Assembly (NCBI GenBank): GCA_017650365.1
Contig: JAGCEZ010000084.1
Coordinates: 38,202-102,201, forward strand
DNA: 64,000 nucleotides
From: Fibrobacterales bacterium
Lineage (GTDB): Bacteria > Fibrobacterota > Fibrobacteria > Fibrobacterales > CADBQJ01
Reading direction: 5' to 3'
The notes beneath the pieces are model-generated. The model was not told the origin of the DNA and did no database searches. It worked only from the letters and a program-made list of their open reading frames with translations. The number at the start of each line of letters is the position of its first letter. Positions within the stretch are counted from its first letter, which is position 1. Both the position numbers and the translations under genes were made by a program. Positions 3-64,000 of the stretch are shown here, in pieces.

Positions 3-1373
3 GCCGCCGAAGCCGTGGAGAAGAAGTACGTCCACCAGGACAAGCGCATCTTCAACAACGCGAAGATCAGCGACCACCACGCCATCATCCCGACCGAACT
101 CCAGGCCAAGGGGCTGACCGAGGCCGAGCAGAAGATCTACGACATGGTCTGCCAGCGGACGATCGCGGTCTTCTTCCCGCCCGCGGAGTACAGCGTCACC
201 TCGCGCGTCACCGTGGTCGAGGGCGAATCGTTCAAGACCGACGGGAAGATCCTGGTGGTCCCGGGCTGGAAGGCCGTCTACGGCAAGTCCGAGGACCCCG
301 ACTCCATCAAGCCGCTCTCCGGCGACCGCGCGGAGCTCCTCTCCGCCGACGTCCTCGGCGACAGCACCAAGCCCCCGGCGCGCTACACCGAAGCGAGCCT
401 GCTCTCGGCGATGGAAGGCGCGGGCAAGCTCGTGGACGACGAGGAGCTGGCCGAGGCGCTCAAGGACCGCGGCCTGGGCACGCCCGCCACGCGCGCGGCG
501 ATCATCGAAAAGCTCATCTCCGACCGCTACGTCGTGCGCGACGGCCGCGACCTGGTCCCCACGCGCAAGGCGTTCGACCTGCTCGGGCTGATCGGCGCGA
601 TGAAGATCGACTACCTCGGCTCCGCCGAGCTGACCGGCGAGTGGGAGCAGAAGCTCAAGCAGATCGAGCGCGGCGAGCTTTCGCGCGACGAGTTCATGAA
701 GGACATCCGCAGCTCCACCGAGGAGATCGTGGAGCGCATCCGCGGCTTCGACGAGGAGCGGACCCGCAAGGAGGCCTCCTTCAGCCCGGTCAACGGCGAG
801 AAGATCTACGAGTGCGTCGGCCACTACGAGAAGGAGGACGGCTCGTGCCGCGTCCGCAAGATCATCGGCGGGCGCCACTTCTCCGCCGCCGAGATCGCGG
901 AGCTCTACGCCGCGGGCCAGGTCGGCCCGTTCCACGACTTCCGCAGCAAGCGCAACACGCCGTTCAGCGCGGCGATCCAGCTGAAGGACGGGCGGACCGA
1001 GTTCCTCTTCTCGCAGAGCTCGACCGACTCCAAGCTCGACACCAGCTCGCTCGAACCGCTGGGGAACTCCCCCGTGGACGGCTCCCCCGTCTACGAGGAC
1101 ATCCAGGCCTACGTGTCGCAGTCGCACCTCGACGGCTCCCCCAAGGGGCTGCGGATCAACCGCGTCATCCTCGGCAAGCAGCTCTCGCCCGACGACGTCA
1201 GGGCACTGCTCTCCAAGGGGCGCACGGGCCTGATCCAGGGCTTCCGCTCCAACCGCACGCACAAGACGTTCGACGCCACGCTCGTGCTGAACAAGGACGG
1301 GAAGATCGGGTTCGAGTTCCCGCCGCGCAAGTCCGGCTTCCGCCGCGGGGCCAAGAAGGCCGCCGAGTCCTAG
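3..1373 (+). CDS. topB: DNA topoisomerase III, C-terminal part (5' end outside window)
   Basis: The frame is open from the window start. Type IA motifs SDHHAIIPT, PPARYTEASLLSAMEGAG and GLGTPATRAAIIEKL are present, with C-terminal repeats such as GRTGLIQGFRSNRTHKTFDATL. Confidence 0.88.
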   Translation, partial: AAEAVEKKYVHQDKRIFNNAKISDHHAIIPTELQAKGLTEAEQKIYDMVCQRTIAVFFPPAEYSVTSRVTVVEGESFKTDGKILVVPGWKAVYGKSEDPDSIKPLSGDRAELLSADVLGDSTKPPARYTEASLLSAMEGAGKLVDDEELAEALKDRGLGTPATRAAIIEKLISDRYVVRDGRDLVPTRKAFDLLGLIGAMKIDYLGSAELTGEWEQKLKQIERGELSRDEFMKDIRSSTEEIVERIRGFDEERTRKEASFSPVNGEKIYECVGHYEKEDGSCRVRKIIGGRHFSAAEIAELYAAGQVGPFHDFRSKRNTPFSAAIQLKDGRTEFLFSQSSTDSKLDTSSLEPLGNSPVDGSPVYEDIQAYVSQSHLDGSPKGLRINRVILGKQLSPDDVRALLSKGRTGLIQGFRSNRTHKTFDATLVLNKDGKIGFEFPPRKSGFRRGAKKAAES

Positions 1374-3072: not shown

Positions 3073-6000
3073 TGCACACCCCCCATCGCCCACCATTCCG
3101 GAGCAACGCCGTGGACAAGATTTCCGTTTCCATCCGTGACGACCACGGAATCAGTTTCGACGAATGTCACGGACTTCGGATTCGACCAGTCGTCCAGGAC
3201 GTTCAGCGTTTCGTAGTTCGTTCCTCTTAAATGTAGCTGATTCTCCACCCCCTCGGGCATGATCGTGCCCGGTGCGAGATTGGCGGCCAACGGCATCCGC
3301 AACTCGTAGCGCCCCTCGCCATGGTCCACGATCTGAGGATCGAAATCCGGAGTGTAGTAGTCCAGCAGATAGGGCGTTGCCTCGGGCATCGTGAAGAAAT
3401 AGTGCAACGTCGCGCCTTCAAGCGGCGTTTCGCCGACGTTCTCCACCTTGAAGCTCAACACGGAAATCTGCGGATGGCCGAAATGGTGGTCTCGCACCGA
3501 CACCTTCAATTTCGGCAGAACAGGATCGGTCGCCGAAGTATCGCCGTTTTCGACCTCGCCGAGGACCGCGAAGTGGAACAGCGAGCTTTCCCCCATGAAC
3601 TCGTCGGGTTCCGCTTTCCTGGTCGCCCCGCCCTCGATGCCGACCCAATGCGCCTCCGGAGGCAGACTGTCGACGACGACCTCCACGCGGAACGGTCCGC
3701 TGGTCTTGTAGCCGCTCCACTGGAGGACATACCTGCCGTCGCCCGCATAATCATCGCCATTCACGCCGTCATCGCGCAGAAGGACCGTGTCGCACCTCGA
3801 TTCCGGCCGGTAAATGTCGCAGATCTCGGCTCGCGGCGAAACACCCGCCAGCAGTTCGGCGGCTCCGATTTCATAATGCAGCAGCAACGTCTCGCCAGGC
3901 AGAAGATTGGCCCTCCCCGGCGGAGCGTATAGTCTGCTCAACGCCGTTGTATTCCCGGACGCCAAGACGGTGTTTTTTCCGGCCCACCCCAAACTAGTGA
4001 ACTGTCGCGCCAAAGCCGCCTGCCGTTGCACAAGATCGGCGCAACTCGCGGTATCCATCTTGGCGAACCACAGTGACGAATCATTTCCCAATCCGTAGGA
4101 AGAAGTCGACACTTGGACAATATGGGAATGATTCTGATCAATCCCGTAGCTGAGCCAGAACCCAAAATCGTCGACGTTTCCGCCGATTTGATGAATTCCC
4201 ACCCATGCCGCCGAGCATTCTTCGAGCATCTTTGCGGACAACTGCGGCACAGCGGTCGTTCCCGCGAAAAACAGCCGCGTCCCAGTATTTGTCCCAGTAA
4301 CCCTCCAAGTCCTTAAGCCCAACACGTTGGAGAGGAACATGACGAGGTTATCCGGTTCGGTTTCCGGTCTGTCAACGATATCGTAGGCGGAGGAACCTAT
4401 CGACATGTAGATGAGCCGGGAGCCTTGGAACGTCTCCGGAAGTTGTCCTGCGGAATCCAGGAAATTCTCCACGTGCAGTCTGATTCCGGCATTTTCCATC
4501 TCCGCGCCGTAGATCTCCTGCCACGACACGAATCCCATTGCATGCAGATGCCCGCTCGTCAAAAACACCAAGTGTTTTCTTTCCGTTGCCGGACGATTTT
4601 TCAGCACGTCTATGCCATAAGTGCCGAGATCGAGATCCATGAAATCGCACGGCCGGAAAAGTTCTTGGCTCTCGCAATCGTTTCCTTCGAACTTCAGGTT
4701 TCCAAGCACGGCCAAGATGGAATCGGCGACGTCCGTAGCGGGGCCGATTGGAACGCTCACATGGTTGTTTCCTCTCGACGCCACGGCTTCCAGCCCGATG
4801 TTGATTCCGGGGACGTTCTTCGCGAACAGCGTGGCCACTTCCAAGGCGCGAATCATCTTCTGTTGCACTTCCTCGGACGCCCACTTGGACAGGTCTACGA
4901 GGAAAAGAACCGTTTTGGCGAACGAGAGCGACGAAGTGTCCGCGTTCCAAAGCGACCAATCGAGTTCAAGGAAAGCCCTCATGATGTCGGCGGATGTCGA
5001 GTCCATCTTCACGTAGCGATTGCCACGCGTGTCGAAGTCATTCGCGGTCGGCGCGACGGACGCAAGTTCCGGCCATCTGTAATCCGGCTTGGAAATTTTA
5101 CCCCATGCCGACTCGGCCAGTTCGTATCTCCGTTTCACCTTCACTCCACCATATTCGCCGTAGAAAGTCCGCGGAGTGCAATGGCCAATCGCCGAGGCAT
5201 TCGCCCCCTCCTCGCAATGCATGTAGTCCGTGGAAAGATTCGCATAACGCATGGCGCCCGCGTCGCCGAAAAGGGTCACCCATTGATGGTACATCAAAGA
5301 CGGCGCCTCCGACATGGCCCGGTCAAGGACTTTGGCCGCGGAATCAATGTTGTCAAATGCATTCCACGCCTCTCTTAAAATTGTCACATTCGGATCGTTC
5401 AGTCTCCATTCGCTTCCCATGACCGGCGTGCTGATAGGCTTGTCGGGATCGACGAGCAAATTGCGAAAACGCTCCGGATTGACAATCGTATAGCCGTCTT
5501 CGAATGTGTATTCATCTCCTAGACCAAGCGTGTAATGACCCCACTCGTGGGCCAGCGTGGCCGCGATAGCGGTTGGTGTGAACAGCTTGTTGCCATCGTA
5601 TCTATCGCGATGGACAAGCAGAATAGCGCCACCTGTGCCGTCTGCATTTTTCCAATCGTTTGTGCCCGCAGAAGAATTGCCGCCAAGTCTTCCATATCCG
5701 TCCGGCGTGGAACAGCTTCCAAGCAGGCCGCATCCGTGATTGCTCGCCCACAGCACATCCACGTATGCGTTATCCACGAAATCCCTCACAAAATGGACTT
5801 TGCCGAGAAGATGCTTGCCGTTGGTCGCCTCGTACAGGTAATCGGCGAACTTGCGGAACGTCTCTTCGATGTAAATCTGGTAGCAGACGCCGGTGGGATG
5901 CCAGGAAACGTCCAATTCGCGCCCCCTTTCGAGCTGCGAATTGCATGTGTACGCCATCGCCGGTCTGGCGATTTCCGGGATGCTGTTTGGAGAACCCAGT

Positions 6001-54747: not shown

Positions 54748-55284
54748 ATGACCGATTATCAAGCCGTCTACGAGGACGCCATCGACAATTACGGGCTCGT
54801 CACGACCCGGAGGGCGAAGGAGCTGGGGCTCGCGCCCAACGCCCTGGCGCAGCTGGCGCATCGGAAACGGCTGGAACGCGTCGGGCACGGAGTCTACCGC
54901 CTCGCCGCGCCGATTCCGTTCGCGGGAAAGGCTCCGGCCTACGCGCTCGCCGTGGAACAGGTCGGCCGCGACGCCCTGCTCTGGGGCGAATCCGTCCTCG
55001 CGCTCCTTGCCCTGTGTCCGACCGACCCGGCCCGCATCCACGTCGGAATCGCCGGCCGCTTCCGGCGCCGCGTTCCCGAAGGCGTCGTCGTCCACCCGGC
55101 CCCGGTTGCCGCGGAAACCGCGGTTTACGAGGGCATCCGCTCCCAGCCCGTCCGGGACGCCCTGCGCGCGTGCCGTGGTTCGATGATGCCGGAGCGGCTT
55201 CTCGCCGCCGCGAAAAAAGCGCGGGAGCGCGGTCTTCTGACGGAGCGAGAATACGAATCCGCGCGGAAGGAGCTCGCGAAATGA
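54748..55284 (+). CDS. Type IV toxin-antitoxin antitoxin, AbiEi family
   Basis: N-terminal wHTH NYGLVTTRRAKELG...RLERVGHGVYRL, then ALLWGESVLALL. Confidence 0.8.
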   Translation: MTDYQAVYEDAIDNYGLVTTRRAKELGLAPNALAQLAHRKRLERVGHGVYRLAAPIPFAGKAPAYALAVEQVGRDALLWGESVLALLALCPTDPARIHVGIAGRFRRRVPEGVVVHPAPVAAETAVYEGIRSQPVRDALRACRGSMMPERLLAAAKKARERGLLTEREYESARKELAK

Positions 55285-55474
55285 CCAAGGCGCCGGTTCC
55301 AGTGATTAGTCGTTAGGGACCAGTCGCCAGTGCGAAGCTAGGCGTCCGCGCGGCGAACCGGAATGGGAAACGCTCTACGCCGCGCAATCGGAAAACGTCT
55401 CCGTTCTCCCGACCGTCGAAGAGGCGGTCGCGTGGGCGCAGCAGCTGGTCGCGAAAATCGACGCGGCGCAATAA
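55281..55474 (+). pseudogene. Internally deleted AbiEii-like toxin gene (start stub + C-terminal remnant)
   Basis: The ATG overlaps the antitoxin stop (ATGA) and stops after 11 codons. In another frame GEPEWETLYAAQSENVSVLPTVEEAVAWAQQLVAKIDAAQ-stop (to 55474) resembles the C-terminus of AbiEii-like nucleotidyltransferases. Confidence 0.6.
55301..55335. repeat. Degenerate heptamer tandem array
   Basis: AGTGATT AGTCGTT AGGGACC AGTCGCC AGTGCGA, five units with exact 7-nt period. Confidence 0.6.
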
Positions 55475-55512
55475 AAAACGCCGGGTTCAAGGTCCCAGGG
55501 ATTAGGGCGAAT

Positions 55513-55938
55513 TTAGGCCTTCTCGCCTGGAATCATGAAGAAGCGTTCCCAGTTCTCGCGGTATTCCGGGAGATCGTACTCTTTGGGATTCACCCACCAC
55601 GAACCTTTCCCATCCAGGTGCGCGGCCTTCTTGACTTCTTCCGGAGACAGCAAGTACGTCACATATTCCTTGTCTGTCTTGCGCACCACCACGCACCAAA
55701 CATCACCCATCACCTTATCCAGGCTCGGCCCCAGTGGAATCGGGCAGCGCTTGGAAAACGACTTCACCTGCACACCTAGAAAGCCCTTGCCATCCGGCAT
55801 GTAGGCAACGATGTCGATCCCTTTTGCGTTCCGTGCCGTCGGCATCACGTTCCAACCCATCTTGGACAGTTGGAAGCAGACGTAATACATCCCCACGTTG
55901 CCGACGATCTGGGAAGGAAGTTTGGATGAAGTTTTCAT
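55513..55938 (-). CDS. Small PD-(D/E)XK restriction-endonuclease-fold protein
   Basis: IVGNVGMYYVCFQLSKMGWNV...KGIDIVAY...GVQVKS, a D...QxK variant of the nuclease motif. Confidence 0.6.
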   Translation of the reverse strand: MKTSSKLPSQIVGNVGMYYVCFQLSKMGWNVMPTARNAKGIDIVAYMPDGKGFLGVQVKSFSKRCPIPLGPSLDKVMGDVWCVVVRKTDKEYVTYLLSPEEVKKAAHLDGKGSWWVNPKEYDLPEYRENWERFFMIPGEKA

Positions 55939-55983
55939 AGACGGACCCTCTTAGCTTGAAAAACTGCTTGGTTACAGAAATAG

Positions 55984-56709
55984 CTACACATCCGGCATAG
56001 CTTGGCAAATTTTGCCGTTAAGCAACTTGCCATTTGCAGCTTTGGAACGTTTAACGCCATCAAAGCCCCACGCGCCCCATTGCTTGAAAAAGAAGGCCGA
56101 CTTGTATCTTGCCGCCTGTTTCTGGATGCTCTCGACCCAGGCTTTCTGCATCGGCCTCGCCTTGGGACCGCTTTCGCCACCCACAATCACCCAATGGATG
56201 TCTTTGAGATTCAGCCTACCCAAATCGCTTAGCAACGGTTCGCAAGACAAGAAGCGGACCCGGGCCTTGATTCGCCGCAGGACATCGATGCGCTCTTTGC
56301 GAGCTGCGCTTTCAACCGTCACGCCGATCCAAACATTATCGGGAACTTTCCGGGTTACGAAATACCGTTCCATCCGTTCGGCACGTTTGGTGAGAATCTG
56401 GAAACGGTGGTTCTCGGCATTCCGAATGGTGTTGAAAACCTTGTCGACAAAGGCAAACGGAACCTTTTCGTTGAACAGGTCGCTCATAGAGCACACGAAT
56501 ATATTGCTCGGCGATTTCCAATGAAGCGGTTCTTCCAAAGACTCCTCATGCAAGGCCACGGAAAAGCCATTCTTGTATTTCTCCAGCCCCATGCTTTGCA
56601 GGCGCCGCGACATCATCGCCGCATAGCAGTTGGCGCAACCTTCTGACATCCGGTCGCAACCCGTAACCGGATTCCACGTCTGGTCAGTCCATTCGATCTT
56701 TGTCTTCAT
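55984..56709 (-). CDS. DUF5131 (phage Gp37/Gp68) family protein with three-Cys motif
   Basis: IEWTDQTWNPVTGCDRMSEGCANCYA (Cx6Cx2C), FVCSMSDLF, FQILTKR, FLSCEPLL, WVIVGGESG, FFFKQWG. Confidence 0.92.
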   Translation of the reverse strand: MKTKIEWTDQTWNPVTGCDRMSEGCANCYAAMMSRRLQSMGLEKYKNGFSVALHEESLEEPLHWKSPSNIFVCSMSDLFNEKVPFAFVDKVFNTIRNAENHRFQILTKRAERMERYFVTRKVPDNVWIGVTVESAARKERIDVLRRIKARVRFLSCEPLLSDLGRLNLKDIHWVIVGGESGPKARPMQKAWVESIQKQAARYKSAFFFKQWGAWGFDGVKRSKAANGKLLNGKICQAMPDV

Positions 56710-57809
56710 TTTACCAGCTCAATCGCGACTTTTGCGTTCTTTCCGTCGCTCAAGTAAAACGTATTCTTCCTAATTCTCGTGTCGGCGTTATATGCTCTAA
56801 TCCGGATTAGGTCTTGTTCGGCAAAAAACTTCAGCACGTCCGTTCCGTGGCGCGGAAGAGAGCCGTTCTCATAGCAAAAATCACGGATATCGACATTCGT
56901 TTTTGGTCCATCTTCCAAGAACTCCCTCATCTTGATTTTCAAAGAATCGCTGAAAAACTCCTGTAGAAACGATGTTTGTCCGACGTTGCATTTGACAAAG
57001 CCAGCGCCTTCGTCCTCGTCGATTTCCCACTTTGTTTCAACGAATTTCTCCAGCCCTTTGCGATTGCTCGAGCAATAAATCAAGCAATTATGTCCACGGC
57101 CGGCATCATCCTGGATGATGAAGCTGTCGACGAATACACCCAACTCTTTGCGGAGCCTTTCAAGGATGTTTCTAGCGAAGTCGACATCGTTCTCAATCAC
57201 AGAAACATCTGGCACAAGAATGAAATCGTCAAGGAATGTTCGAATCGCATTAATCATTCTGCCCTTGAATCTGTATATGAAGGATACAGGCAAGAACAGT
57301 AGCACTTCGGTATCGCCGTCTTTTAGGATTTCCTTCATATCTGCCAATCGAATGCCACTATATCCAAAAGGGTCGATGAAGAAGAATCGCTTGAAGTAGT
57401 TATGGGTCTTGTGTTTGCTAAGAATTTGTGGCAACAAGTCCGCGTAGTCTTTGTTTTGGACGTCCGTCTCCACCCAATTGATCTTCTGGATTCTATGGTT
57501 GTCAACGAACGCTTTTAGCTTCCGATGATTTTCCGGATCACTTTCGTTAAAACAGATCTTTACCTGCAACCCTTCCAAATATGTTTGAGCCAAGTAGTCC
57601 AATAATATCATCGGGCTACCCGGATTCCCACGCTCATCTTTTCCGGGACCAGCGAACAAGTCGGCGATATAGACGGTGTCCTTTTTGTTCCTGTTCCACG
57701 ATTGCTGATAAGCTTTGCTCAATACCTTAAGATACCTGGCGATATACGCCCTATAGACGCCAAGCTTAGCCTTGGTCGAATCATTGAACTCATCGAAGAA
57801 GTCGGACAT
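56706..57809 (-). CDS. Three-Cys-motif partner protein (TcmP-like, methyltransferase-like fold)
   Basis: STKAKLGVYRAYI, YIADLFAGPG...GSP, FFFIDPFGYS; stop overlaps the DUF5131 start; SD-like GGAG upstream of the ATG at 57809. Confidence 0.85.
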   Translation of the reverse strand: MSDFFDEFNDSTKAKLGVYRAYIARYLKVLSKAYQQSWNRNKKDTVYIADLFAGPGKDERGNPGSPMILLDYLAQTYLEGLQVKICFNESDPENHRKLKAFVDNHRIQKINWVETDVQNKDYADLLPQILSKHKTHNYFKRFFFIDPFGYSGIRLADMKEILKDGDTEVLLFLPVSFIYRFKGRMINAIRTFLDDFILVPDVSVIENDVDFARNILERLRKELGVFVDSFIIQDDAGRGHNCLIYCSSNRKGLEKFVETKWEIDEDEGAGFVKCNVGQTSFLQEFFSDSLKIKMREFLEDGPKTNVDIRDFCYENGSLPRHGTDVLKFFAEQDLIRIRAYNADTRIRKNTFYLSDGKNAKVAIELVK

Positions 57810-57833
57810 ACACCCACTCCCACATTGCAATTG

Positions 57834-58574
57834 CTAATCCTTCACGCAACGGACGGAAGCGCCGTATTGCACATTTTCGGGGGAGCAGCAATCGGCCCAT
57901 CCAATGTTCCCTTGTAACAAATCGATGCCAAATGTCTCTGCTTGTGGTCCAATCATTCTAGCCCATTTTTGAATTTGAGGGTCATCCGGCACCCATTCTT
58001 CGGTGGCAGACCACCACACCGTGTACCCGCCAAGGTATGCGAATTTGCCGCCATCCCAATCGACGTGAATGCCGCCAGGAAGCGCGTTGAACCCAAAAGA
58101 ATTCTCCCCTACATAATTTTCCCAGCCATCTTTCGATGCCAGCGCCGTTGCCTCTGCCTCGTGATCTTCTTCCCAAATCTTGCAGCTGCCGTCCAAATAC
58201 TTCTCTTTGCACTCCTGCTTGGGCAAAGATTGCCGCACGAATTTCTCAAGCGCCATCCATTCTTCGGCCGTGGGTAGATGCCAGCCTTCGGGACAGCTCT
58301 CCTTCGCGACCTTCCAAATGTAAAGGCCGCCGTACTTTTCGCAATTCGCCAGCGAATCGCCGTAGCACCACTTTTCGCCAAGAGAGAGTTCCGACTTGCT
58401 CTCCAGGGGCTTGCCATAGTTCAAGTTCTGCGCCATCCAGACCTGGTCGCCAATCTTAACGGTCTTGTAGACTTGCCCGTCCCGCGGGTCCTTGAACGAG
58501 CCATCGCCGGAGTCATCGGAGCAACCAAGCGCCGCAACGACACAAAGCGCAATCAGCAGCAATTTCCCGTTCAT
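57834..58574 (-). CDS. FISUMP (Fibrobacter succinogenes major paralogous) domain lipoprotein
   Basis: Lipobox AALGC; FKDPRDGQVYKTVKIGDQVWMAQNLNY, GGLY.W, CPEGWHLPT, GFNALPGG, SVRCVKD. Confidence 0.9.
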   Translation of the reverse strand: MNGKLLLIALCVVAALGCSDDSGDGSFKDPRDGQVYKTVKIGDQVWMAQNLNYGKPLESKSELSLGEKWCYGDSLANCEKYGGLYIWKVAKESCPEGWHLPTAEEWMALEKFVRQSLPKQECKEKYLDGSCKIWEEDHEAEATALASKDGWENYVGENSFGFNALPGGIHVDWDGGKFAYLGGYTVWWSATEEWVPDDPQIQKWARMIGPQAETFGIDLLQGNIGWADCCSPENVQYGASVRCVKD

Positions 58575-59326
58575 TTCTTTTCCTTCTGTTCCTTCACGCA
58601 ACGGACGGAAGCTCCTATGCCTTTGAGCGCCAGCCAATATTCAAGTTTCCCGCTCTTGCGAAGTAGTACTCGGACATTTACGCTATCGCCACCAGCGCGG
58701 CTAGAAGTCCACCACATCCCGTGGCTGCCTTTTCCTAAAAACTCGACCTGGGTCCCAGCCACCCCTCTTATGCCTCCAGGAAGAAACCCGTATGCATTCT
58801 CCGATACAAATCCACCCCAAGCCTCGGTCTTCATCATTGTGCCCACTACGTCGAAGAACTCTTCCGTTCCTTCGAACGATGTCCAGCGGCGTCCATGGCA
58901 GAACATTCTTTCAATGGCAGCACTGTCGCCAAAAGACGAAGGCATTCCCGGACCACAGAGCGCTGTAACGCCCATCAAATACTCTTGTTCTAGATTGTTC
59001 CAATCTTTTTCAGTCGGCAGGCGCCATCCATCAGGACAACTTTGTTTGGCGGCCTCCCATGTATAGAGCCCTCCATATTTGCGGCAATTTTTCAGATCGT
59101 CATCATAACAGTATTTCTGCCCTCTCCCCAATTTAAGGCGCTCTCCCTCCACCGGCGTTCCATAGTTCAAGTTTTGTTCCATCCAAACGAGGTTTGAGAA
59201 AGGATGGAGAGTTGAGATGCTGTAAATCTGGCCATCGCGGGAATCCTTGAGTGTTTCAGGACCATCTTGGGCCAAGACAGCCGTAGCGATGACCATAAGC
59301 GCAATCAGTGCGAGTTTCTTGTTCAT
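58571..59326 (-). CDS. FISUMP domain secreted protein
   Basis: Signal peptide; LKDSRDGQIY, WMEQNLNY, GGLYTWEAAKQSCPDGWRLPT, SVRCVKE. Confidence 0.9.
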   Translation of the reverse strand: MNKKLALIALMVIATAVLAQDGPETLKDSRDGQIYSISTLHPFSNLVWMEQNLNYGTPVEGERLKLGRGQKYCYDDDLKNCRKYGGLYTWEAAKQSCPDGWRLPTEKDWNNLEQEYLMGVTALCGPGMPSSFGDSAAIERMFCHGRRWTSFEGTEEFFDVVGTMMKTEAWGGFVSENAYGFLPGGIRGVAGTQVEFLGKGSHGMWWTSSRAGGDSVNVRVLLRKSGKLEYWLALKGIGASVRCVKEQKEKK

Positions 59327-59343
59327 CTTTTTCCCCTTCGGTC

Positions 59344-59679
59344 TCAATATCCCGAGTAGCGGCAATCGTAACGGCCCTTGACGTAGGCGTTATAGAAACG
59401 CCCCTTCGAAGACGCCTGGAGCCACGAACTGAAGACCCGTTCCGGGACGCCGCAGTAGTGATAATAGGTGCCGTTCAACGAAACCAGCAGATACCGCGCA
59501 TCGTCCTGGTAGCAGATACGGTCCACGAACGAACTGCTAACCCAAGAGCATCGGAACTCGTCCAAATCAACGACGCCGCGATACTTCACATAGACCGATT
59601 CCGCGCGCGCAAGAACCGGCAGAAGCGCCAGGCCAAGCACAATGAAGGGCAAGAACTTGCGATTGCGTTTCAGAGACAT
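59344..59679 (-). CDS. KTSC-domain protein with N-terminal signal peptide
   Basis: SSFVDRICY...LLVSLNGTYYHYCGVPERVFSSWLQASSKGRFYNAYVKGRY. Confidence 0.8.
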   Translation of the reverse strand: MSLKRNRKFLPFIVLGLALLPVLARAESVYVKYRGVVDLDEFRCSWVSSSFVDRICYQDDARYLLVSLNGTYYHYCGVPERVFSSWLQASSKGRFYNAYVKGRYDCRYSGY

Positions 59680-59682
59680 GGT

Positions 59683-60300
59683 TTAGAACTTTCGATCATT
59701 CTCAGTGAGGCATATTCCTTCAAAGGAATATGTTTCAACATCCCAATCTTCTTGGATTTTCATTTCTCCAGTATAACGATTGAGCCGCAACCGCGCCTTA
59801 TTGTGGTCAGGGCCGCCATTCCACGCATGAAACAAAATCGAATTCACAGAAGAATTGCGATCTTCCCAATGATACTCCGGTTTGAGCGTAACATGATCCC
59901 ATCGATCCAGGTCTTCCCTTTGCTTAACCGTCTCTAGGTGCAATTTGCTTGCATTAAAAGCCCGAATATCAGCACGAATTGACGTGGCCTTTTTTTGCTG
60001 AACAACGACAAGAAACGATTTTGCGCCCCCGTCTTGGGAATGACCTTGGCAATACAAATGCGTGACGGGGTGCTCTTCGAGCAGATCTATAAGGATGGGC
60101 AAAAGAAAGTAGGCAGTAATTCCTGCTACAGCAATACCGAAAATAATGGGCAATCCAAGACCAATAGTCTTCAACACCGAGACGACCGGCATACACACAC
60201 GACGGTCATTGCCGGTCGGCGCTACAGCGGCGGAAGTACGACGCATTCTCGCTCTGCGAAAATCCGGCGTTGCACGCTCTTTTTCCCGCTCTTGATCCAT
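59683..60300 (-). CDS. Hypothetical single-pass membrane protein
   Basis: Strong SD (GGAGGGGAGAG) before the ATG at 60300; one TM segment (LGLPIIFGIAVAGITAYFLLPILI). Confidence 0.65.
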   Translation of the reverse strand: MDQEREKERATPDFRRARMRRTSAAVAPTGNDRRVCMPVVSVLKTIGLGLPIIFGIAVAGITAYFLLPILIDLLEEHPVTHLYCQGHSQDGGAKSFLVVVQQKKATSIRADIRAFNASKLHLETVKQREDLDRWDHVTLKPEYHWEDRNSSVNSILFHAWNGGPDHNKARLRLNRYTGEMKIQEDWDVETYSFEGICLTENDRKF

Positions 60301-60311
60301 CTCTCCCCTCC

Positions 60312-60389
60312 CTAGAACTTCAGTTTCGGCAGCGACTTGACGATTTGGGCGTACCCCGAAAATTCAGCTTTCTTTTTCGCCTTCTTCAT
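60312..60389 (-). CDS. Small basic 25-aa ORF MKKAKKKAEFSGYAQIVKSLPKLKF
   Basis: SD GGAGGT 8-9 nt upstream of the ATG; the stop is followed directly by the next gene's SD. Confidence 0.45.
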   Translation of the reverse strand: MKKAKKKAEFSGYAQIVKSLPKLKF

Positions 60390-60430
60390 CGCAATCTAAC
60401 CTCCGTCCCAGAAATATATACCGAGCAAAG

Positions 60431-60458
60431 CAGGAACCCATCGACAGGAACCCATCGA
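60431..60458. repeat. Perfect 14-bp tandem repeat in the divergent intergenic region
   Basis: CAGGAACCCATCGA x2. Confidence 0.7.
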
Positions 60459-60700
60459 ACTCGCCGCAGGCTGTTAATTCGCCCATAGACCCGCCTGCTG
60501 GAGGCAAAGGACCTCGCAGCCAACCAGCCGAAGGGCTCTTACGAGGAATTGCGCCTCAAAGTGCCCATTTTCGTCGATTTTGCGCAAAAATGCCGTAGAA
60601 ATGGCACATAAACGGACGGCCGCAATAGTTAGATTGGCTGAAGAGGTCTATCCCCGAGATACGACCGATTGTGGATTATTGCCTGGCATCTGGGAGAAGG

Positions 60701-62314
60701 ATGATGGCGAGGAAAAAAGCCGCAGAAGAAACGATCAATTTGGACGCGATTCTCTTCAAGTGCCGCGACATCTTGCGCCAGGCGCGCAATTCGGGTTCGT
60801 TCTTCGAAAAGCGCGACATGATGCTTACACTCGTCTTTCTGCGTTTCATCGGGGAAAAGTACGAGAACGGCGTCGAGAACCTCCGCAAGGACCTCATTGC
60901 GCAGGGGCTCGACCCGAACGACGAACAGATTGTCTCCGCATTCTTCGACGACGCCACGTTTACCGACGGCACGTACAATCTGCCGCCCGAAGCGCGCTGG
61001 GAGACAATCATCAACACGCCGGCTCCTCGCTTGAACGCCGCGCTTGACATGGCGCTGCACAGCATCGCGGCGAGCAACAAACAGCTCAAGGGCTGTTTTA
61101 TCGAGGGAACTTTCACTCAACGCAACCTTGCGCCAAACGACATCAAGAAGCTCGTCGACGAAATCAACAAAATCAGCTACCGGGCTTTCGGCGAGGAAAG
61201 GGACCTGATTGGCCGGGTCTACGAGTATTTCCTCAAGGAGTTCGCCGTCAACGCGACCAAGGAAGAGGGAGAATTCTACACACCGCATGATGTGGTTCAG
61301 CTGATTGCGGCGATAATCGAACCTTTCGACGGCACGCTCTACGACCCTTGCTGCGGCTCGGGCGGCATGTTCATCCAGAGCGCCGACCTGGTGAAGTCAA
61401 AGCAGGGCGACATCAGCAGGATTAACGTCTACGGTCAGGAGAAAGACGCAATGACCTGGCGTCTGGCGAAGATGAATCTTGCCCTGCGCGGCATCAGTCA
61501 TCACCTTGGCGAGACATATGATTCGACGTTTGTCAATGACCAGCACAAGGGAGTTTACTTCGACTACATCATGGCGAATCCGCCGTTCAACCTGAAGGGC
61601 TGGTACAACGAGAACCTGCGCCATGACGCGCGGTGGGCCGACTACGGAACGCCGCCGGAAAGCAATGCCAACTACGCCTGGATTCTCCACATGCTTTCGC
61701 ATCTGAAGCCGACGAGCGGCGTGGCGGCTTTCCTGCTTGGCAATGGCGCTCTTGATGATGAAGACGCCGTTGCCATCCGAAAGAAGCTGATACAGAACGA
61801 CAAAGTGGAAGCAATTATCATCCTGCCGCGCGAACTGTTCATCACGACGGATACCGGCGCGACAATCTGGATTTTGAACCAGAACAAAAAAGGTGGCAAA
61901 GACCATGGCAGAGAACTACGCGATCGCAAGCATGAAATACTCTTCGTGGATTTGCGCACCTGGACTGAAAATCCAATCAAAAAAGAAGGCAACAGCAAGA
62001 AGAGATTTCAGCTGATCACTGAACAAATCGAACGAGTCGCTGCCATCTACCACAAGTGGCAAGCGAAAGGCACGAATGGCGCAGATTACGCCGTGCCGGA
62101 ACTCTACCGCAGCGTCAACATCTCCGAAATCGAAGAAAACGGCTGGAGCCTCGTCCCCAGCAAGTATATCGAATTCATCGACCACGACCTGGAAATCGAC
62201 TTCCCTGCGGAAATGAAACGAATCCGCAAGGAGATGCAGGAAGTCCTGAAACAGGAAAAGAAGTCGCAGAAGATGCTCGAAGACGCCTTCAAGGGTATCG
62301 GTTATGGAATATAG
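60701..62314 (+). CDS. hsdM: Type I restriction-modification methyltransferase subunit
   Basis: HsdM N-terminal domain, GEFYTP, YDPCCGSGGMF, YGQE, NPPFN catalytic motif. Confidence 0.95.
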   Translation: MMARKKAAEETINLDAILFKCRDILRQARNSGSFFEKRDMMLTLVFLRFIGEKYENGVENLRKDLIAQGLDPNDEQIVSAFFDDATFTDGTYNLPPEARWETIINTPAPRLNAALDMALHSIAASNKQLKGCFIEGTFTQRNLAPNDIKKLVDEINKISYRAFGEERDLIGRVYEYFLKEFAVNATKEEGEFYTPHDVVQLIAAIIEPFDGTLYDPCCGSGGMFIQSADLVKSKQGDISRINVYGQEKDAMTWRLAKMNLALRGISHHLGETYDSTFVNDQHKGVYFDYIMANPPFNLKGWYNENLRHDARWADYGTPPESNANYAWILHMLSHLKPTSGVAAFLLGNGALDDEDAVAIRKKLIQNDKVEAIIILPRELFITTDTGATIWILNQNKKGGKDHGRELRDRKHEILFVDLRTWTENPIKKEGNSKKRFQLITEQIERVAAIYHKWQAKGTNGADYAVPELYRSVNISEIEENGWSLVPSKYIEFIDHDLEIDFPAEMKRIRKEMQEVLKQEKKSQKMLEDAFKGIGYGI

Positions 62315-63428
62315 GCTTGGCGAACTCATCCATCATGAAGATGAGCGCAATGAACGCGGCGCGTTTTCGTTAAGCGATGTCCGAGGCATATCCATCAAGA
62401 AAGAATTCATAGAGACGAAAGCGGATATGGAGGGCGTCTCATTGCGTCCGTATATTCTTGTTCGCCCCGATAATTTCGCCTATGTCACCGTCACTTCGCG
62501 AAATGGCGAGAAAATAACGATTGCGCACAATGACACGCAAAACACCTACATCGTGTCCTCGTCTTATGAGGTATTCAGCGTCGCACGAAATGATTTGCTA
62601 AACCCATGGTATCTCTTCATGTATTTCAACAGGCCGGAATTCGACCGGTATGCGAGATTCCATTCGTTTGGCTCTGCCAGAGAAACATTCGACTGGCAAG
62701 ACATGTGCGACATTGATATCGAACTTCCTCCGCTTTCGGTCCAGCAGAAATATGTCGACATTTATTTGGGCTTGGTTGCCAACCAGAAGAGCTATGAGCG
62801 AGGGCTGGAGGACTTGAAGTTCGTCTGCGACGGATATATCGAAGATCTGCGCCGCAAAATGCCGTGCGAGAAGATTGGGCCATATATTGAGCCCAAAGAA
62901 GAGCGAAATTCAGATCTCAGAATCAAACTTGCTCAAGGCATCACCAACGAGAAACGATTTGATGCGCCCAAGCAGGTCGCTGAAGCGGCCGAAAATGCGA
63001 AGATTGTTCGCACAGGACAATTCGCTTACAATCAAGCGACAACAAGGAATGGTGAAAAAATTTCCATCGCATTCCGTGACGGAGAAGATTGTGTTGTCTC
63101 TTCCGCTTACCAAGTGTTTGAAATCAAGGACAAGAAAAGACTTCTGCCCGAGTATTTGATGATGTGGTATAAGCGCCCGGAATTTGACCGCTATGTGCGA
63201 TACATGTCAAAAGGTAGCGCGCATGAATTTTTCAAATACTCGGATATGGAAAACGTCAGCATCCCGATCCCGGGGATTGGTGTACAGAGAGCTATTGCTG
63301 ACATCTATAACGCCTGCACGGTTCGCGAGCGCATCAACAAACAGCTCAAGGCGCAAATCAAGGACGTTTGCCCGGTTTTGATTAAAGGCTCGTTGGAGGA
63401 AGGCGGCAATCCGGAATGCGTTCAATGA
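62304..63428 (+). CDS. hsdS: Type I restriction-modification specificity subunit
   Basis: Two homologous TRD halves (RNGEKI..A, VSS.Y.VF, RPEFDRY.R...GS) each followed by LPP/IP..VQ helices; overlaps the hsdM end. Confidence 0.92.
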   Translation: MEYRLGELIHHEDERNERGAFSLSDVRGISIKKEFIETKADMEGVSLRPYILVRPDNFAYVTVTSRNGEKITIAHNDTQNTYIVSSSYEVFSVARNDLLNPWYLFMYFNRPEFDRYARFHSFGSARETFDWQDMCDIDIELPPLSVQQKYVDIYLGLVANQKSYERGLEDLKFVCDGYIEDLRRKMPCEKIGPYIEPKEERNSDLRIKLAQGITNEKRFDAPKQVAEAAENAKIVRTGQFAYNQATTRNGEKISIAFRDGEDCVVSSAYQVFEIKDKKRLLPEYLMMWYKRPEFDRYVRYMSKGSAHEFFKYSDMENVSIPIPGIGVQRAIADIYNACTVRERINKQLKAQIKDVCPVLIKGSLEEGGNPECVQ

Positions 63429-64000
63429 AGTCATATAGCCATTTCATGAATAAGATAAGCTCAGAGGATATTTTCGAAGGGCTGTTAGGACATGGTCTGT
63501 TTTCAGAGAAACTGCCACCGATTTTTTCCTCAGAATCTTTCTACAAATATTGTCGCGAAAATCCAAAGGCCTTTCCCGAAGACCGTGCGTGTCCATATGT
63601 TTTCTACGAAAGCATGCGTAATACAAATGTTCCCCGCCAATTAGGCATCCCGAACCCAATGGCATACCAACAGCTATGCCGCTGCATCTCGGCAAATTGG
63701 AGCAAAATACAGAACCACTTCGAAAAAGCAACTTGCAATGACACACATATTGTTAGTCGCATTCATCTGCGGAAAATGAACAACACAAAAATTCTGTACC
63801 GAATGAACTATGACAACTGGAAGACCGACGGCAATCCTATTCAGGATTTGCTTATAGGGCATAGATATGTGGTTCATGCCGATATTGCGACATGCTTTCC
63901 CAGCATATACACCCACACCATTCCATGGGCTCTAGTTGGAAAGGAAACGGCGAAGAAAAACACGCATTGCCGCGGGAAAAACAAAACGTGGTATAACGAA
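63425..64000 (+). CDS. Reverse transcriptase of the Abi/UG (defence-associated) class, N-terminal 192 aa (runs off window)
   Basis: Manual translation from the ATG overlapping the hsdS stop: MKSYSHFMNK...GLFSEKLPPIF...PRQLGIPNPMAY...SRIHLRK...YVVHADIATCFPSIYTHTIPWALVGK. No stop to the window end. Confidence 0.85.
   Translation, partial: MKSYSHFMNKISSEDIFEGLLGHGLFSEKLPPIFSSESFYKYCRENPKAFPEDRACPYVFYESMRNTNVPRQLGIPNPMAYQQLCRCISANWSKIQNHFEKATCNDTHIVSRIHLRKMNNTKILYRMNYDNWKTDGNPIQDLLIGHRYVVHADIATCFPSIYTHTIPWALVGKETAKKNTHCRGKNKTWYNE

What the first reader, a model, noticed from the sequence alone, without database searches (positions are those of the whole stretch)
55513..57809. TcmP + DUF5131 + small PD-(D/E)XK nuclease: candidate novel modification-restriction defence system
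Seen: three co-oriented genes. The TcmP-like methyltransferase-fold gene (DLFAGPG, IDPFG) overlaps the DUF5131 gene (Cx6Cx2C), and a 141-aa nuclease-like ORF follows 45 bp later. The set lies in an AT-richer island beside type I RM and an RT. Known: TIGR04474 and PF07505 co-occur, the Cys motif resembles a radical-SAM variant, and their chemistry is unestablished. Inference: the pair installs or senses a novel DNA/RNA base modification, and the nuclease is the restriction/effector arm.
Basis: partly seen in the sequence, partly recalled or inferred. Interest (0 to 1): 0.72.

Follow-up and report, generated by a model that had tools for sequence, protein, structure and literature searches.

The report
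TcmP-DUF5131 pair plus unrelated small nuclease
The three genes are real, but only the first two form a unit (a catalogued, untested phage-defence candidate of unknown chemistry). The small nuclease-like gene beside them is an independent mobile gene that sits next to this pair only in this genome.

Summary
On the minus strand, TcmP (57809-56706) overlaps DUF5131 (56709-55984) by 4 bp. A 141-aa ORF (55938-55513) follows after 45 bp. All lie in a low-GC defence island.

The interpretation as a three-gene modification-restriction system is not supported.
- TcmP+DUF5131 is the PADLOC candidate PDC-M30, proposed by "guilt-by-embedding" and never tested.
- In 80 TcmP loci from other species, DUF5131 is adjacent in 78 and the 141-aa gene in 0.
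- In 93 loci of the 141-aa family, the pair is present in 0.
- Two whole genomes carrying the closest pairs have no 141-aa homologue.

The 141-aa protein does have a PD-(D/E)XK nuclease fold, like Hjc, I-Ssp6803I and NhoI. Its motif is unusual: N14...D42...Q57-x-K59. It belongs to an unannotated family of about 1,900 clusters that moves alone. At least 14 of 80 copies are integron cassettes, and others lie on plasmids from Pseudomonas to Sulfolobus.

The best reading is two independent modules side by side. The pair's chemistry remains unknown. It is probably radical-SAM-type chemistry on nucleic acid, targeted by a methyltransferase-fold and winged-helix partner. Interest is low to moderate.

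The parts
56706..57809 (-). tcmP: 367-aa class I SAM-methyltransferase-fold protein with a C-terminal winged-helix domain (three-Cys-motif partner protein; PADLOC PDC-M30A)
   Evidence: TIGR04474 at 126.5 bits. PDC-M30A at E=1.7e-103. AlphaFold model has pLDDT 89.2 and pTM 0.87, and all top PDB matches are class I SAM methyltransferases. Invariant D50/G56 (motif I) and D146-P147-x-G149-Y150 (motif IV position) across 53 sequences. GMT-wHTH (PF22560) matches in relatives.
55984..56709 (-). DUF5131 / Gp37-Gp68 family protein, 241 aa, with a Cx6Cx2C three-Cys motif (radical-SAM-related; PADLOC PDC-M30B). Overlaps tcmP by 4 bp.
   Evidence: PF07505 at E=3.3e-104. PDC-M30B at 4.5e-112. Partial match to radical SAM mobile pair protein A, TIGR04471, at 89.5 bits, below its cut-off of 355. 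C18, C25, C28 and GGESG177-181 are invariant in 80 sequences. DUF5131 is listed as a radical-SAM subgroup by RadicalSAM.org.
55513..55938 (-). ORF141: solitary PD-(D/E)XK-fold protein (N14...D42...Q57-x-K59) from an unannotated mobile family. Not part of the pair.
   Evidence: No Pfam, NCBIfam or PADLOC hit. Model has pLDDT 86.6, and Foldseek finds Hjc, I-Ssp6803I, Eco15I-N/NhoI and SPARDA nuclease domains at E 8e-5 to 1e-3. Weak Mrr_cat_2 hits in 28 of 43 family members. Family invariants. 1,890 representatives at E<=1e-3.
55481..55498 (-). Terminator-like hairpin with a T-run 15 nt after the ORF141 stop. It is the best terminator candidate downstream of the three genes.
   Evidence: The number of such sites in the region is not above chance (7 found against 6.9 expected), so this is weak evidence only.
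57834..59365 (-). Two co-oriented FISUMP lipoprotein genes immediately upstream. The first stops 24 bp before the tcmP ATG, so tcmP has no promoter-sized intergenic region of its own.
   Evidence: PF09603/TIGR02145 at E=1e-27 to 1e-39. Sequence.
60671..64000 (+). Type I RM hsdM-hsdS with an embedded Drt4-type reverse transcriptase. HsdR and two GmrSD_N proteins follow beyond the window. This is a neighbouring defence system, not part of the finding.
   Evidence: Continuation of the contig.
54748..55284 (+). AbiEi antitoxin gene at the GC-rich edge of the island, convergent with ORF141
   Evidence: PF13338 and PADLOC AbiEi at 1.6e-48.

Best explanation
Two independent modules lie side by side at the edge of a horizontally acquired, low-GC defence island of at least 17 kb.

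(1) tcmP-DUF5131 is a self-contained two-gene module, the PADLOC candidate PDC-M30.
- Shown: the two genes are translationally coupled. They co-occur in 78 of 80 loci. TcmP has a class I SAM-methyltransferase fold with motif I (DLFAGPG), a DPFGY loop where amino-methyltransferases carry (D/N)PP(Y/F), and a C-terminal winged helix. DUF5131 keeps three invariant cysteines (Cx6Cx2C) and is classed with radical-SAM enzymes.
- Inferred: TcmP binds SAM and nucleic acid and presents a base or site to DUF5131. DUF5131 then uses a [4Fe-4S] cluster and SAM for radical chemistry on that nucleic acid.
- My odds for the biological role of the pair: about 0.45 anti-phage defence, about 0.25 DNA-damage repair, about 0.15 DNA modification for a mobile element, about 0.15 other.

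(2) ORF141 is a solitary, minimal PD-(D/E)XK-fold protein from a family that travels alone as an integron cassette, a plasmid gene or a single-gene islet.
- Inferred: it is a homodimeric DNA endonuclease with an Asn/Asp/Gln-x-Lys site. It is either a small modification- or structure-dependent restriction/defence nuclease like NhoI, or a selfish Hjc/homing-endonuclease-like gene.

Here ORF141 may be co-transcribed with the pair by read-through, but it is not a component of the pair's system.
For: Pair identity.

Pair coupling: DUF5131 is adjacent in 78 of 80 TcmP loci from other species.

No ORF141 homologue is found in any of these:
- the 80 TcmP loci;
- the closest PDC-M30 relatives L010, L175, L176-178, L179, L180 and L184;
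- the whole genomes G001 and G017, which carry the closest pairs.

Converse test: 0 of 93 ORF141-family loci contain TcmP or DUF5131, and no neighbour family recurs in more than 3 loci.

ORF141 neighbours range from restriction genes to SpoT, fumarase and FtsK.

ORF141 mobility:
- 14 of 80 copies have attC-like sites, against 0.3 expected;
- Vibrio copies lie in cassette arrays;
- 20 plasmids carry it, including pHS87a and Sulfolobus pARN4.

No single third gene accompanies the pair. Only 39 of 73 loci have a close co-oriented downstream gene and 35 of 69 an upstream one, and these are diverse: HsdS 9, HsdR 5, radical SAM 6, the rest singletons.

Folds.

Defence-candidate status of the pair: Payne et al. 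2024, bioRxiv 10.1101/2024.01.29.577857. Independently, 11-12 of 78 loci here are embedded in type I RM operons.
Against: - In this locus the three genes are co-oriented and separated by only 45 bp. There is no convincing terminator between DUF5131 and ORF141, but there is a hairpin after ORF141. Local functional coupling therefore cannot be excluded.
- In close PDC-M30 relatives, nuclease-domain genes of different families lie next to or near the pair: HNH_2, GmrSD_N-HNH, NERD, GIY-YIG. This could mean interchangeable effectors rather than mere defence-island crowding.
- No biochemical or phage-challenge data exist for either module.
- ORF141's site has Asn and Gln where Hjc-type enzymes have Glu, so nuclease activity itself is unproven.
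Confidence: 0.8

Rival explanations
1. One reading: the three genes form one modification-restriction system. The pair writes or reads a novel base modification, and ORF141 is the restriction or effector nuclease. A looser form holds that PDC-M30 pairs work with interchangeable nuclease effectors, and ORF141 is the local one.
For: The genes are co-oriented with a 45-bp gap. The only terminator-like hairpin lies after ORF141. ORF141 has a nuclease fold. Other close PDC-M30 loci have HNH_2 2 bp upstream, GmrSD_N-HNH 3 bp downstream, or NERD two genes downstream.
Against: - ORF141 is absent from 80 of 80 TcmP loci and from all close relatives.
- The pair is absent from 93 of 93 ORF141 loci.
- Two complete or near-complete genomes have the pair and no ORF141 anywhere.
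- About half of the pairs have no close co-oriented neighbour at all.
- The adjacent nucleases in relatives are self-contained known defence genes (MmeI-like, GmrSD-like), as expected in defence islands.
Confidence: 0.07
2. The pair is not a defence system. It is a DNA-damage repair module: a radical-SAM lyase-type enzyme akin to spore photoproduct lyase, targeted by TcmP to a lesion, and carried by mobile elements and phages.
For: - RadicalSAM.org places DUF5131 in the same megacluster (5) as spore photoproduct lyase.
- UmuD-like S24 peptidase or Y-family polymerase genes lie within 2.5 kb in 8 of 78 loci.
- Earlier agents of this scan report LexA-type operators upstream of the pair in many bacteria and a copy behind recA-recX in M. 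tuberculosis (neither claim was verified here).
- The Rv2734-Rv2735c-recX-recA cluster is induced by mitomycin C (PMC5057432).
- DUF5131 occurs in 176 phage genomes.
Against: - In this window there is no SOS context. The pair sits in a defence island and has no promoter region of its own (24 bp after a lipoprotein gene).
- 11-12 of 78 loci are embedded in type I RM operons, the signature used to nominate defence candidates.
- I did not verify that Rv2734/Rv2735c are homologues.
Confidence: 0.25
3. The pair installs a protective DNA or RNA modification for the mobile element or phage that carries it (anti-restriction or self-marking), with no cognate nuclease of its own.
For: - TcmP has a methyltransferase fold, a DPFGY loop at the motif IV position and a winged helix.
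- DUF5131 is found in 176 phage records. In Gordonia phage WelcomeAyanna a TcmP-like 'methyltransferase' lies next to it.
- The pair is frequently adjacent to RM systems.
Against: No modification has been reported for any host or phage with the pair. Only 7 phage records matched this TcmP at tblastn sensitivity. Embedding inside host RM operons fits defence better than anti-restriction.
Confidence: 0.15

Closest known systems
PADLOC phage-defence candidate PDC-M30 (TcmP + DUF5131) and its sister PDC-M41; Payne et al. 2024, bioRxiv 10.1101/2024.01.29.577857
   Same: Both HMMs match almost end to end (A: 1.7e-103; B: 4.5e-112). The architecture is two genes, translationally coupled, in a defence island.
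   Different: Nothing essential. Here the pair is not embedded in an RM operon; it lies 2.9 kb from a type I RM on the other strand. PDC systems are predictions only and have not been tested.
Radical SAM superfamily: the DUF5131 subgroup of SFLD/RadicalSAM.org, 'radical SAM mobile pair protein A' (TIGR04471), and spore photoproduct lyase in the same megacluster
   Same: Three invariant cysteines near the N-terminus. Partial HMM match to TIGR04471 (2e-25). Listed as a radical-SAM subgroup.
   Different: The motif is Cx6Cx2C rather than the canonical CxxxCxxC. The TIGR04471 score is far below its cut-off (89.5 against 355). No Fe-S or SAM-cleavage data exist, and no solved relative is detectable by sequence.
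Class I SAM-dependent methyltransferases with a (D/N)PP(Y/F) motif IV (N6-adenine, N4-cytosine and N2-guanine amino-methyltransferases; Trm5/TYW2/METTL16-like folds)
   Same: Rossmann-type seven-strand fold. A GxG motif I after strand 1. An invariant D-P-x-G-Y loop after strand 4.
   Different: TM-scores are only 0.3-0.5 and there is no sequence-level match to any methyltransferase family. The loop is DPFGY, not DPPY. Methyl transfer is unproven.
Minimal PD-(D/E)XK nucleases: archaeal Hjc resolvases (2eo0, 2wcw), homing endonuclease I-Ssp6803I (2ost), and methyl-directed restriction enzymes NhoI and Eco15I N-domain (8rpx, 8q5o)
   Same: For ORF141: same size (about 140 aa), the same alpha-beta-beta-beta-alpha-beta core, Asp at the start of strand 2, and x-K in strand 3.
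   Different: Sequence identity is 14-20% and TM-scores are 0.45-0.6. The family invariably has Asn14 and Gln57 where Hjc-type enzymes have Glu. From memory, QxK is known in active enzymes such as HinP1I. There is no recognisable separate DNA-recognition domain.
Bacteriophage-resistance integron cassettes (BRiCs); bioRxiv 10.1101/2024.07.02.601719
   Same: The ORF141 family is a small single-gene unit found both as attC-flanked cassettes and outside integrons in defence islands, as described for BRiCs.
   Different: No ORF141 homologue has been tested. The window copy has no attC-like site.

Membership tests
TcmP (NCBIfam TIGR04474) | HMM score above the curated cut-off | tested here: met
   126.5 bits against a cut-off of 53
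TcmP (NCBIfam TIGR04474) | Encoded next to a PF07505 three-Cys protein | tested here: met
   4-bp overlap in the window. Adjacent in 78 of 80 loci elsewhere.
DUF5131 (PF07505) | HMM score above the gathering threshold; three-Cys motif | tested here: met
   348 bits against 28.9. C18, C25 and C28 are invariant in 80 sequences.
PADLOC PDC-M30 | Both component HMMs (A and B) match adjacent genes | tested here: met
   A at 1.7e-103 and B at 4.5e-112, adjacent genes
PADLOC PDC-M30 | Anti-phage activity | not testable with these tools
   PDC systems are predictions by embedding and were not assayed.
Radical SAM superfamily | Canonical CxxxCxxC cluster-binding motif | tested here: not met
   The motif is Cx6Cx2C. 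It is a variant spacing, invariant across the family.
Radical SAM superfamily | [4Fe-4S] binding and reductive SAM cleavage | not testable with these tools
   Only classification by SFLD/RadicalSAM.org and a sub-threshold TIGR04471 match
Class I SAM-dependent methyltransferase | Rossmann-like seven-strand fold with a glycine-rich motif I | tested here: met
   Model pLDDT 89. The 50 listed top PDB matches are almost all class I methyltransferases; 77 matches reach E<=1e-3. DLFAGPG with invariant D50 and G56.
Class I SAM-dependent methyltransferase | Methyl-transfer activity | not testable with these tools
   No family-level sequence match
PD-(D/E)XK nuclease superfamily (ORF141) | Alpha-beta-beta-beta-alpha-beta core fold | tested here: met
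   Model pLDDT 86.6. Foldseek finds Hjc, I-Ssp6803I and NhoI at E 8e-5 to 1e-3. Viral PD-(D/E)XK matches.
PD-(D/E)XK nuclease superfamily (ORF141) | Catalytic D...(D/E)xK with a helix-1 Glu | tested here: inconclusive
   D42 and K59 are invariant, but position 57 is an invariant Gln and helix 1 carries an invariant Asn14. Activity is unknown.
   0 of 80 TcmP loci, 0 of the close relatives, and 0 of 93 in the converse test
Type I RM-embedded defence gene | Located between hsd genes of one operon | tested here: not met
   In the window the pair is 2.9 kb from hsdM, on the opposite strand, with three genes between. Elsewhere 11-12 of 78 pairs are embedded.
Integron gene cassette (ORF141, window copy) | attC site (YAAC...GTTR with paired arms) after the stop codon | tested here: not met
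   None found in the window. 14 of 80 homologous loci have one, against 0.3 expected.

The most novel reading that the evidence does not exclude
PDC-M30-type TcmP/DUF5131 pairs are the sensing or modifying core of a modular system that recruits interchangeable nuclease effectors. In different genomes these would be HNH, GmrSD-HNH or NERD nucleases, and here the minimal PD-(D/E)XK protein ORF141. On this reading the trio works as one restriction-like unit even though the third gene is not conserved by family.
Probability: 0.08. Interest if true: 0.65.

Novelty: new member of a known kind. Interest (0 to 1): 0.25.

Why it matters
The TcmP/DUF5131 pair is widespread in bacteria, archaea and 176 phage records. 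It is catalogued as a defence candidate, yet its chemistry and role are unknown, so any instance is a possible entry point. This instance adds nothing structurally new to that question.

- A clear negative result: the proposed nuclease arm is not part of the system.
- A description of an unannotated family of about 140-aa PD-(D/E)XK-fold proteins with an Asn/Asp/Gln-x-Lys site. The family has about 1,900 clusters at 50% identity and spreads as integron cassettes and plasmid genes from Pseudomonas and Vibrio to Sulfolobus. It is a reasonable candidate for a minimal single-gene defence or selfish nuclease and is easy to test.

Tried and rejected
- Sequence searches of the PDB gave nothing usable for ORF141 (single sequence and profile), DUF5131 or the TcmP profile.
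- The sigma-70 promoter scan found no site in 55200-60800. Terminator-like sites were not above chance, so operon structure remains an inference.
- The first four scripts to detect attC sites were too rigid: strict consensus, ungapped arms, MFE end-pairing and a greedy stem walk. They missed visually obvious sites. A duplex-energy test of the two arms against shuffles worked. The Vibrio VCR-type sites are still missed by it, so 14 of 80 is a lower bound.
- GC content was considered as a way to separate ORF141 from the pair and rejected. ORF141 is 0.54, DUF5131 0.525 and TcmP 0.448. The two genes of the obligate pair differ more from each other than DUF5131 differs from ORF141.
- The 138-aa ORF that follows DUF5131 by 48 bp in relative G017 was considered as an ORF141 analogue and rejected. 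It is a FISUMP lipoprotein fragment with no profile similarity.
- The LexA/SOS lead from earlier agents was not tested, because tcmP here has no upstream intergenic region.
Full report
**1. Observation**

The window carries three co-oriented ORFs on the minus strand.
- tcmP runs from the ATG at 57809 to the stop ending at 56706 (367 aa). A GGGAG Shine-Dalgarno sequence precedes the ATG, and the homologues start at the same residue.
- The DUF5131 gene occupies 56709-55984 (241 aa) and overlaps tcmP by ATGA.
- A 141-aa ORF occupies 55938-55513. It starts exactly 45 bp after the DUF5131 stop and has its own AAGAGGG ribosome-binding site.

GC content drops from 0.66-0.70 to 0.45-0.54 at about 55.5 kb and stays low to the window end. 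It remains low to the end of the contig, 9.5 kb further on.

The island contains, in order:
- ORF141;
- the DUF5131-TcmP pair;
- two FISUMP lipoprotein genes;
- a 205-aa ORF without matches;
- hsdM-hsdS with an embedded Drt4-type reverse transcriptase, then hsdR;
- two GmrSD_N proteins.

At the GC-rich edge sits an AbiEi antitoxin gene.

**2. The pair**

TcmP scores 126.5 bits against TIGR04474 (cut-off 53). DUF5131 scores 348 bits against PF07505. Both match the PADLOC models PDC-M30A and PDC-M30B almost end to end, at 1.7e-103 and 4.5e-112.

[quoted passage not shown] They were added to PADLOC without being tested (Payne et al. 2024, bioRxiv 10.1101/2024.01.29.577857).

I fetched 80 TcmP loci from one-genome-per-species contigs. 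These are mostly Bacteroidota, with some Acidobacteriota, Ignavibacteriota, Spirochaetia and others. DUF5131 lies immediately downstream of TcmP in 78 of them. Independently of the paper, 11-12 of the 78 pairs sit among hsdR, hsdS and hsdM genes.

An AlphaFold model of TcmP from a 53-sequence alignment has pLDDT 89.2 and pTM 0.87. Its 50 listed best PDB matches are almost all class I SAM methyltransferases, including HNMT, PsiM, Trm5a, TYW2, METTL16 and RNMT. TM-scores are only 0.3-0.5, so it resembles no specific family.

Invariant residues map to the expected positions:
- D50/G56 in the loop after strand 1 (motif I);
- D146-P147-x-G149-Y150 in the loop after strand 4, the position of (D/N)PP(Y/F) in amino-methyltransferases.

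The C-terminal 85 residues form a winged helix. Relatives match Pfam GMT-wHTH there.

In DUF5131, the following residues are invariant over 80 sequences and intact here: C18, C25, C28, SMSD74-77, TKR107-109, E133 and GGESG177-181. RadicalSAM.org lists DUF5131 as a radical-SAM subgroup in the same megacluster as spore photoproduct lyase. The TIGR04471 'radical SAM mobile pair protein A' model matches partially (89.5 bits, cut-off 355).

DUF5131 occurs in 176 of 50,697 phage records. This divergent TcmP query detects 7 Gordonia phage records. In WelcomeAyanna it lies next to the DUF5131 gene.

**3. Is the nuclease a third component?**

No. Every test gave the same answer.
- tblastn with ORF141 finds no homologue in any of the 80 TcmP loci.
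- The relatives closest to this pair (TcmP 45-65% identical) have other neighbours:
  - an AAA_15 ATPase and an unknown 339-aa protein (L010);
  - an MmeI-like enzyme and HNH_2 (L175);
  - GIY-YIG upstream and NERD downstream (L176-178);
  - MmeI-like upstream and GmrSD_N-HNH downstream (L179);
  - GmrSD_N and an ADP-ribosylglycohydrolase (L180);
  - a FISUMP fragment (G017).
- Two whole genomes that carry the closest pairs, G001 and G017, contain no ORF141 homologue anywhere. Neither do the other 29 relatives of the window's genome. The same-genus relative lacks both modules.
- Conversely, I collected 93 loci encoding ORF141 homologues from genomes, metagenomes and viral contigs. None has TcmP or DUF5131 within the fetched flanks, and 44 of them have more than 2 kb upstream.

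I also looked for any conserved third gene.
- Only 39 of 73 assessable loci have a close co-oriented downstream gene, and only 35 of 69 have an upstream one.
- These neighbours are diverse: HsdS 9, HsdR 5, a 400-aa radical-SAM protein 6, and singletons such as SLATT, TIR, RecD2 and Fic.

The pair is therefore a two-gene unit.

**4. What ORF141 is**

ORF141 has no Pfam, NCBIfam or PADLOC match. It has only weak PHROG matches to families of unknown function.

It has 126 homologues in the word-indexed protein search. A profile search of 1.84 billion representatives finds 1,890 clusters at E<=1e-3 and 719 at E<=1e-10, nearly all 130-190 aa and single-domain.

Family invariants are N14, G16, L24, S25, N30, M32, T34, R36, N37, A38, G40, D42, Q57 and K59.

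The AlphaFold model (pLDDT 86.6, pTM 0.81) has helix 15-26 followed by strands at 30-33, 43-46 and 53-61. Foldseek matches include (viral matches):
- archaeal Hjc resolvases;
- the PD-(D/E)XK homing endonuclease I-Ssp6803I;
- the methyl-directed enzymes NhoI and Eco15I-N;
- SPARDA nuclease domains.

These matches have E 8e-5 to 1e-3 and TM-scores 0.45-0.6. In addition, 28 of 43 family members give sub-threshold Mrr_cat_2 hits.

The nuclease-fold call is therefore correct. D42 sits at the start of strand 2 and Q57-x-K59 in strand 3, where the superfamily has D...(D/E)xK. Asn14 replaces the usual helix-1 Glu. From memory, QxK variants are active in HinP1I. Activity of this family is unproven.

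The family has no conserved neighbour; no flanking family recurs in more than 3 of 91 loci. Its contexts include:
- Vibrio cassette arrays;
- 40 bp after a type III res gene in Fibrobacterales;
- after DEAD/MZB helicases;
- between GmrSD and an SNF2 helicase, after spoT, between a glycosyltransferase and fumarase, and after ftsK.

At least 14 of 80 assessable copies are followed by an attC-like element. This is YAAC at the stop codon, then GTTR 55-120 nt later, with complementary arms. Shuffles predict 0.3.

Twenty plasmids carry the gene. They include P. aeruginosa pHS87a, where it overlaps the end of relB-yafQ by 4 bp, and the Sulfolobus plasmid pARN4.

Small defence genes are known to circulate as integron cassettes and to recur outside integrons (bioRxiv 10.1101/2024.07.02.601719). 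The window copy has no attC-like site.

**5. Mechanism and rivals**

Best reading (confidence 0.8): two independent modules are juxtaposed in a defence island.

For the pair I infer the following, none of it shown. TcmP binds SAM and, through its winged helix, nucleic acid. It presents a target to DUF5131, which performs [4Fe-4S]/SAM radical chemistry.

Three biological roles remain open:
- anti-phage defence (about 0.45), supported by the PADLOC listing and the RM embedding;
- DNA-damage repair (about 0.25);
- protective DNA modification for mobile elements or phages (about 0.15).

The repair reading rests on four points:
- DUF5131 shares a megacluster with spore photoproduct lyase.
- umuD/umuC-like genes lie near 8 of 78 pairs.
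- Earlier agents of this scan reported LexA operators upstream of the pair; I did not verify this.
- A recA-recX-Rv2735c-Rv2734 cluster is induced by mitomycin C (PMC5057432). I did not verify that Rv2734 and Rv2735c are homologues of the pair.

Three things keep it alive:
- The genes may be co-transcribed. The only plausible terminator follows ORF141.
- tcmP has no promoter region of its own, being 24 bp after a lipoprotein gene.
- Close relatives have other nucleases nearby. However, those are self-contained known defence genes, as expected in islands.

**6. Novelty and verdict**

The pair is a new member of a known but functionally untested kind. This scan has already noted 639 instances of it. 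The three-gene system is not real as a system.

The by-product is the ORF141 family: a cassette-borne minimal PD-(D/E)XK protein family spread across Bacteria and Archaea. It is modestly interesting and easy to test. Overall interest is 0.25.

Noticed in passing
window 55513-55938 (-); loci L101, L106, L113, L114, L120, L133, L134, L143, L145, L148, L153, L156, L165: The ORF141 family is a recurrent integron gene cassette. 14 of 80 assessable homologous loci carry an attC-like element right after the stop codon, against 0.3 expected. Vibrio copies lie in superintegron-like arrays. There is no Pfam or PADLOC model for the family, which has about 1,890 clusters at 50% identity.
   Followed up: partly
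L186 (P. aeruginosa plasmid pHS87a) 3883-4881; L187 (Sulfolobus pARN4) 3998-4423: On pHS87a an ORF141 homologue overlaps the 3' end of a relB-yafQ toxin-antitoxin pair by 4 bp, giving a three-gene operon, near a class 1 integron integrase. A 36%-identical homologue sits on archaeal conjugative plasmids.
   Followed up: no
loci L019, L028, L029, L041, L044, L052, L057, L062, L067 and others: In 11-12 of 78 TcmP/DUF5131 loci the pair lies among hsdR, hsdS and hsdM genes of a type I RM operon. One HsdR carries an inserted GIY-YIG domain (L019:7808-10522).
   Followed up: partly
loci L012, L024, L039, L045, L056, L060, L076 (Chitinophagaceae-type) and L049, L070, L078, L081: A 400-aa radical-SAM protein and a LigT/2H phosphoesterase lie just upstream of the pair in 6-8 loci. 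UmuD-like S24 peptidase or Y-family polymerase genes lie within 2.5 kb in 8 of 78 loci. This may link the pair to the DNA-damage response, or it may reflect shared ancestry of these loci.
   Followed up: no
window 57810-57833 and L010, L175, L176, L179, L180: In all PDC-M30-type loci examined, tcmP starts from an overlap to 34 bp after a co-oriented but unrelated upstream gene. These include a FISUMP lipoprotein, HNH_2, an MmeI-like enzyme, an ADP-ribosylglycohydrolase and unknown proteins. The pair behaves like a promoterless cassette appended to other operons.
   Followed up: partly
L181 (contig continuation) 18-9223: Beyond the window the island continues with a full-length 508-aa Drt4-type reverse transcriptase between hsdS and a 1112-aa hsdR, then two divergent GmrSD_N proteins (780 and 637 aa). 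The contig ends inside the island, so its far boundary is unknown.
   Followed up: partly
L184 (relative G017) 298-714 (-): In a same-order relative the gene 48 bp after DUF5131 is a FISUMP lipoprotein fragment. In the window, FISUMP genes lie just upstream of tcmP. The pair may have moved together with FISUMP genes from a lower-GC Fibrobacter-like donor into this 68%-GC genome.
   Followed up: no
L012 6001-7035: The TcmP homologue in a Ferruginibacter MAG has an in-frame stop codon, so it is a possible pseudogene or sequencing error.
   Followed up: no
window 59683-60300 (-): A 205-aa ORF between the FISUMP genes and hsdM has no match in Pfam, NCBIfam, PADLOC or PHROGs.
   Followed up: no
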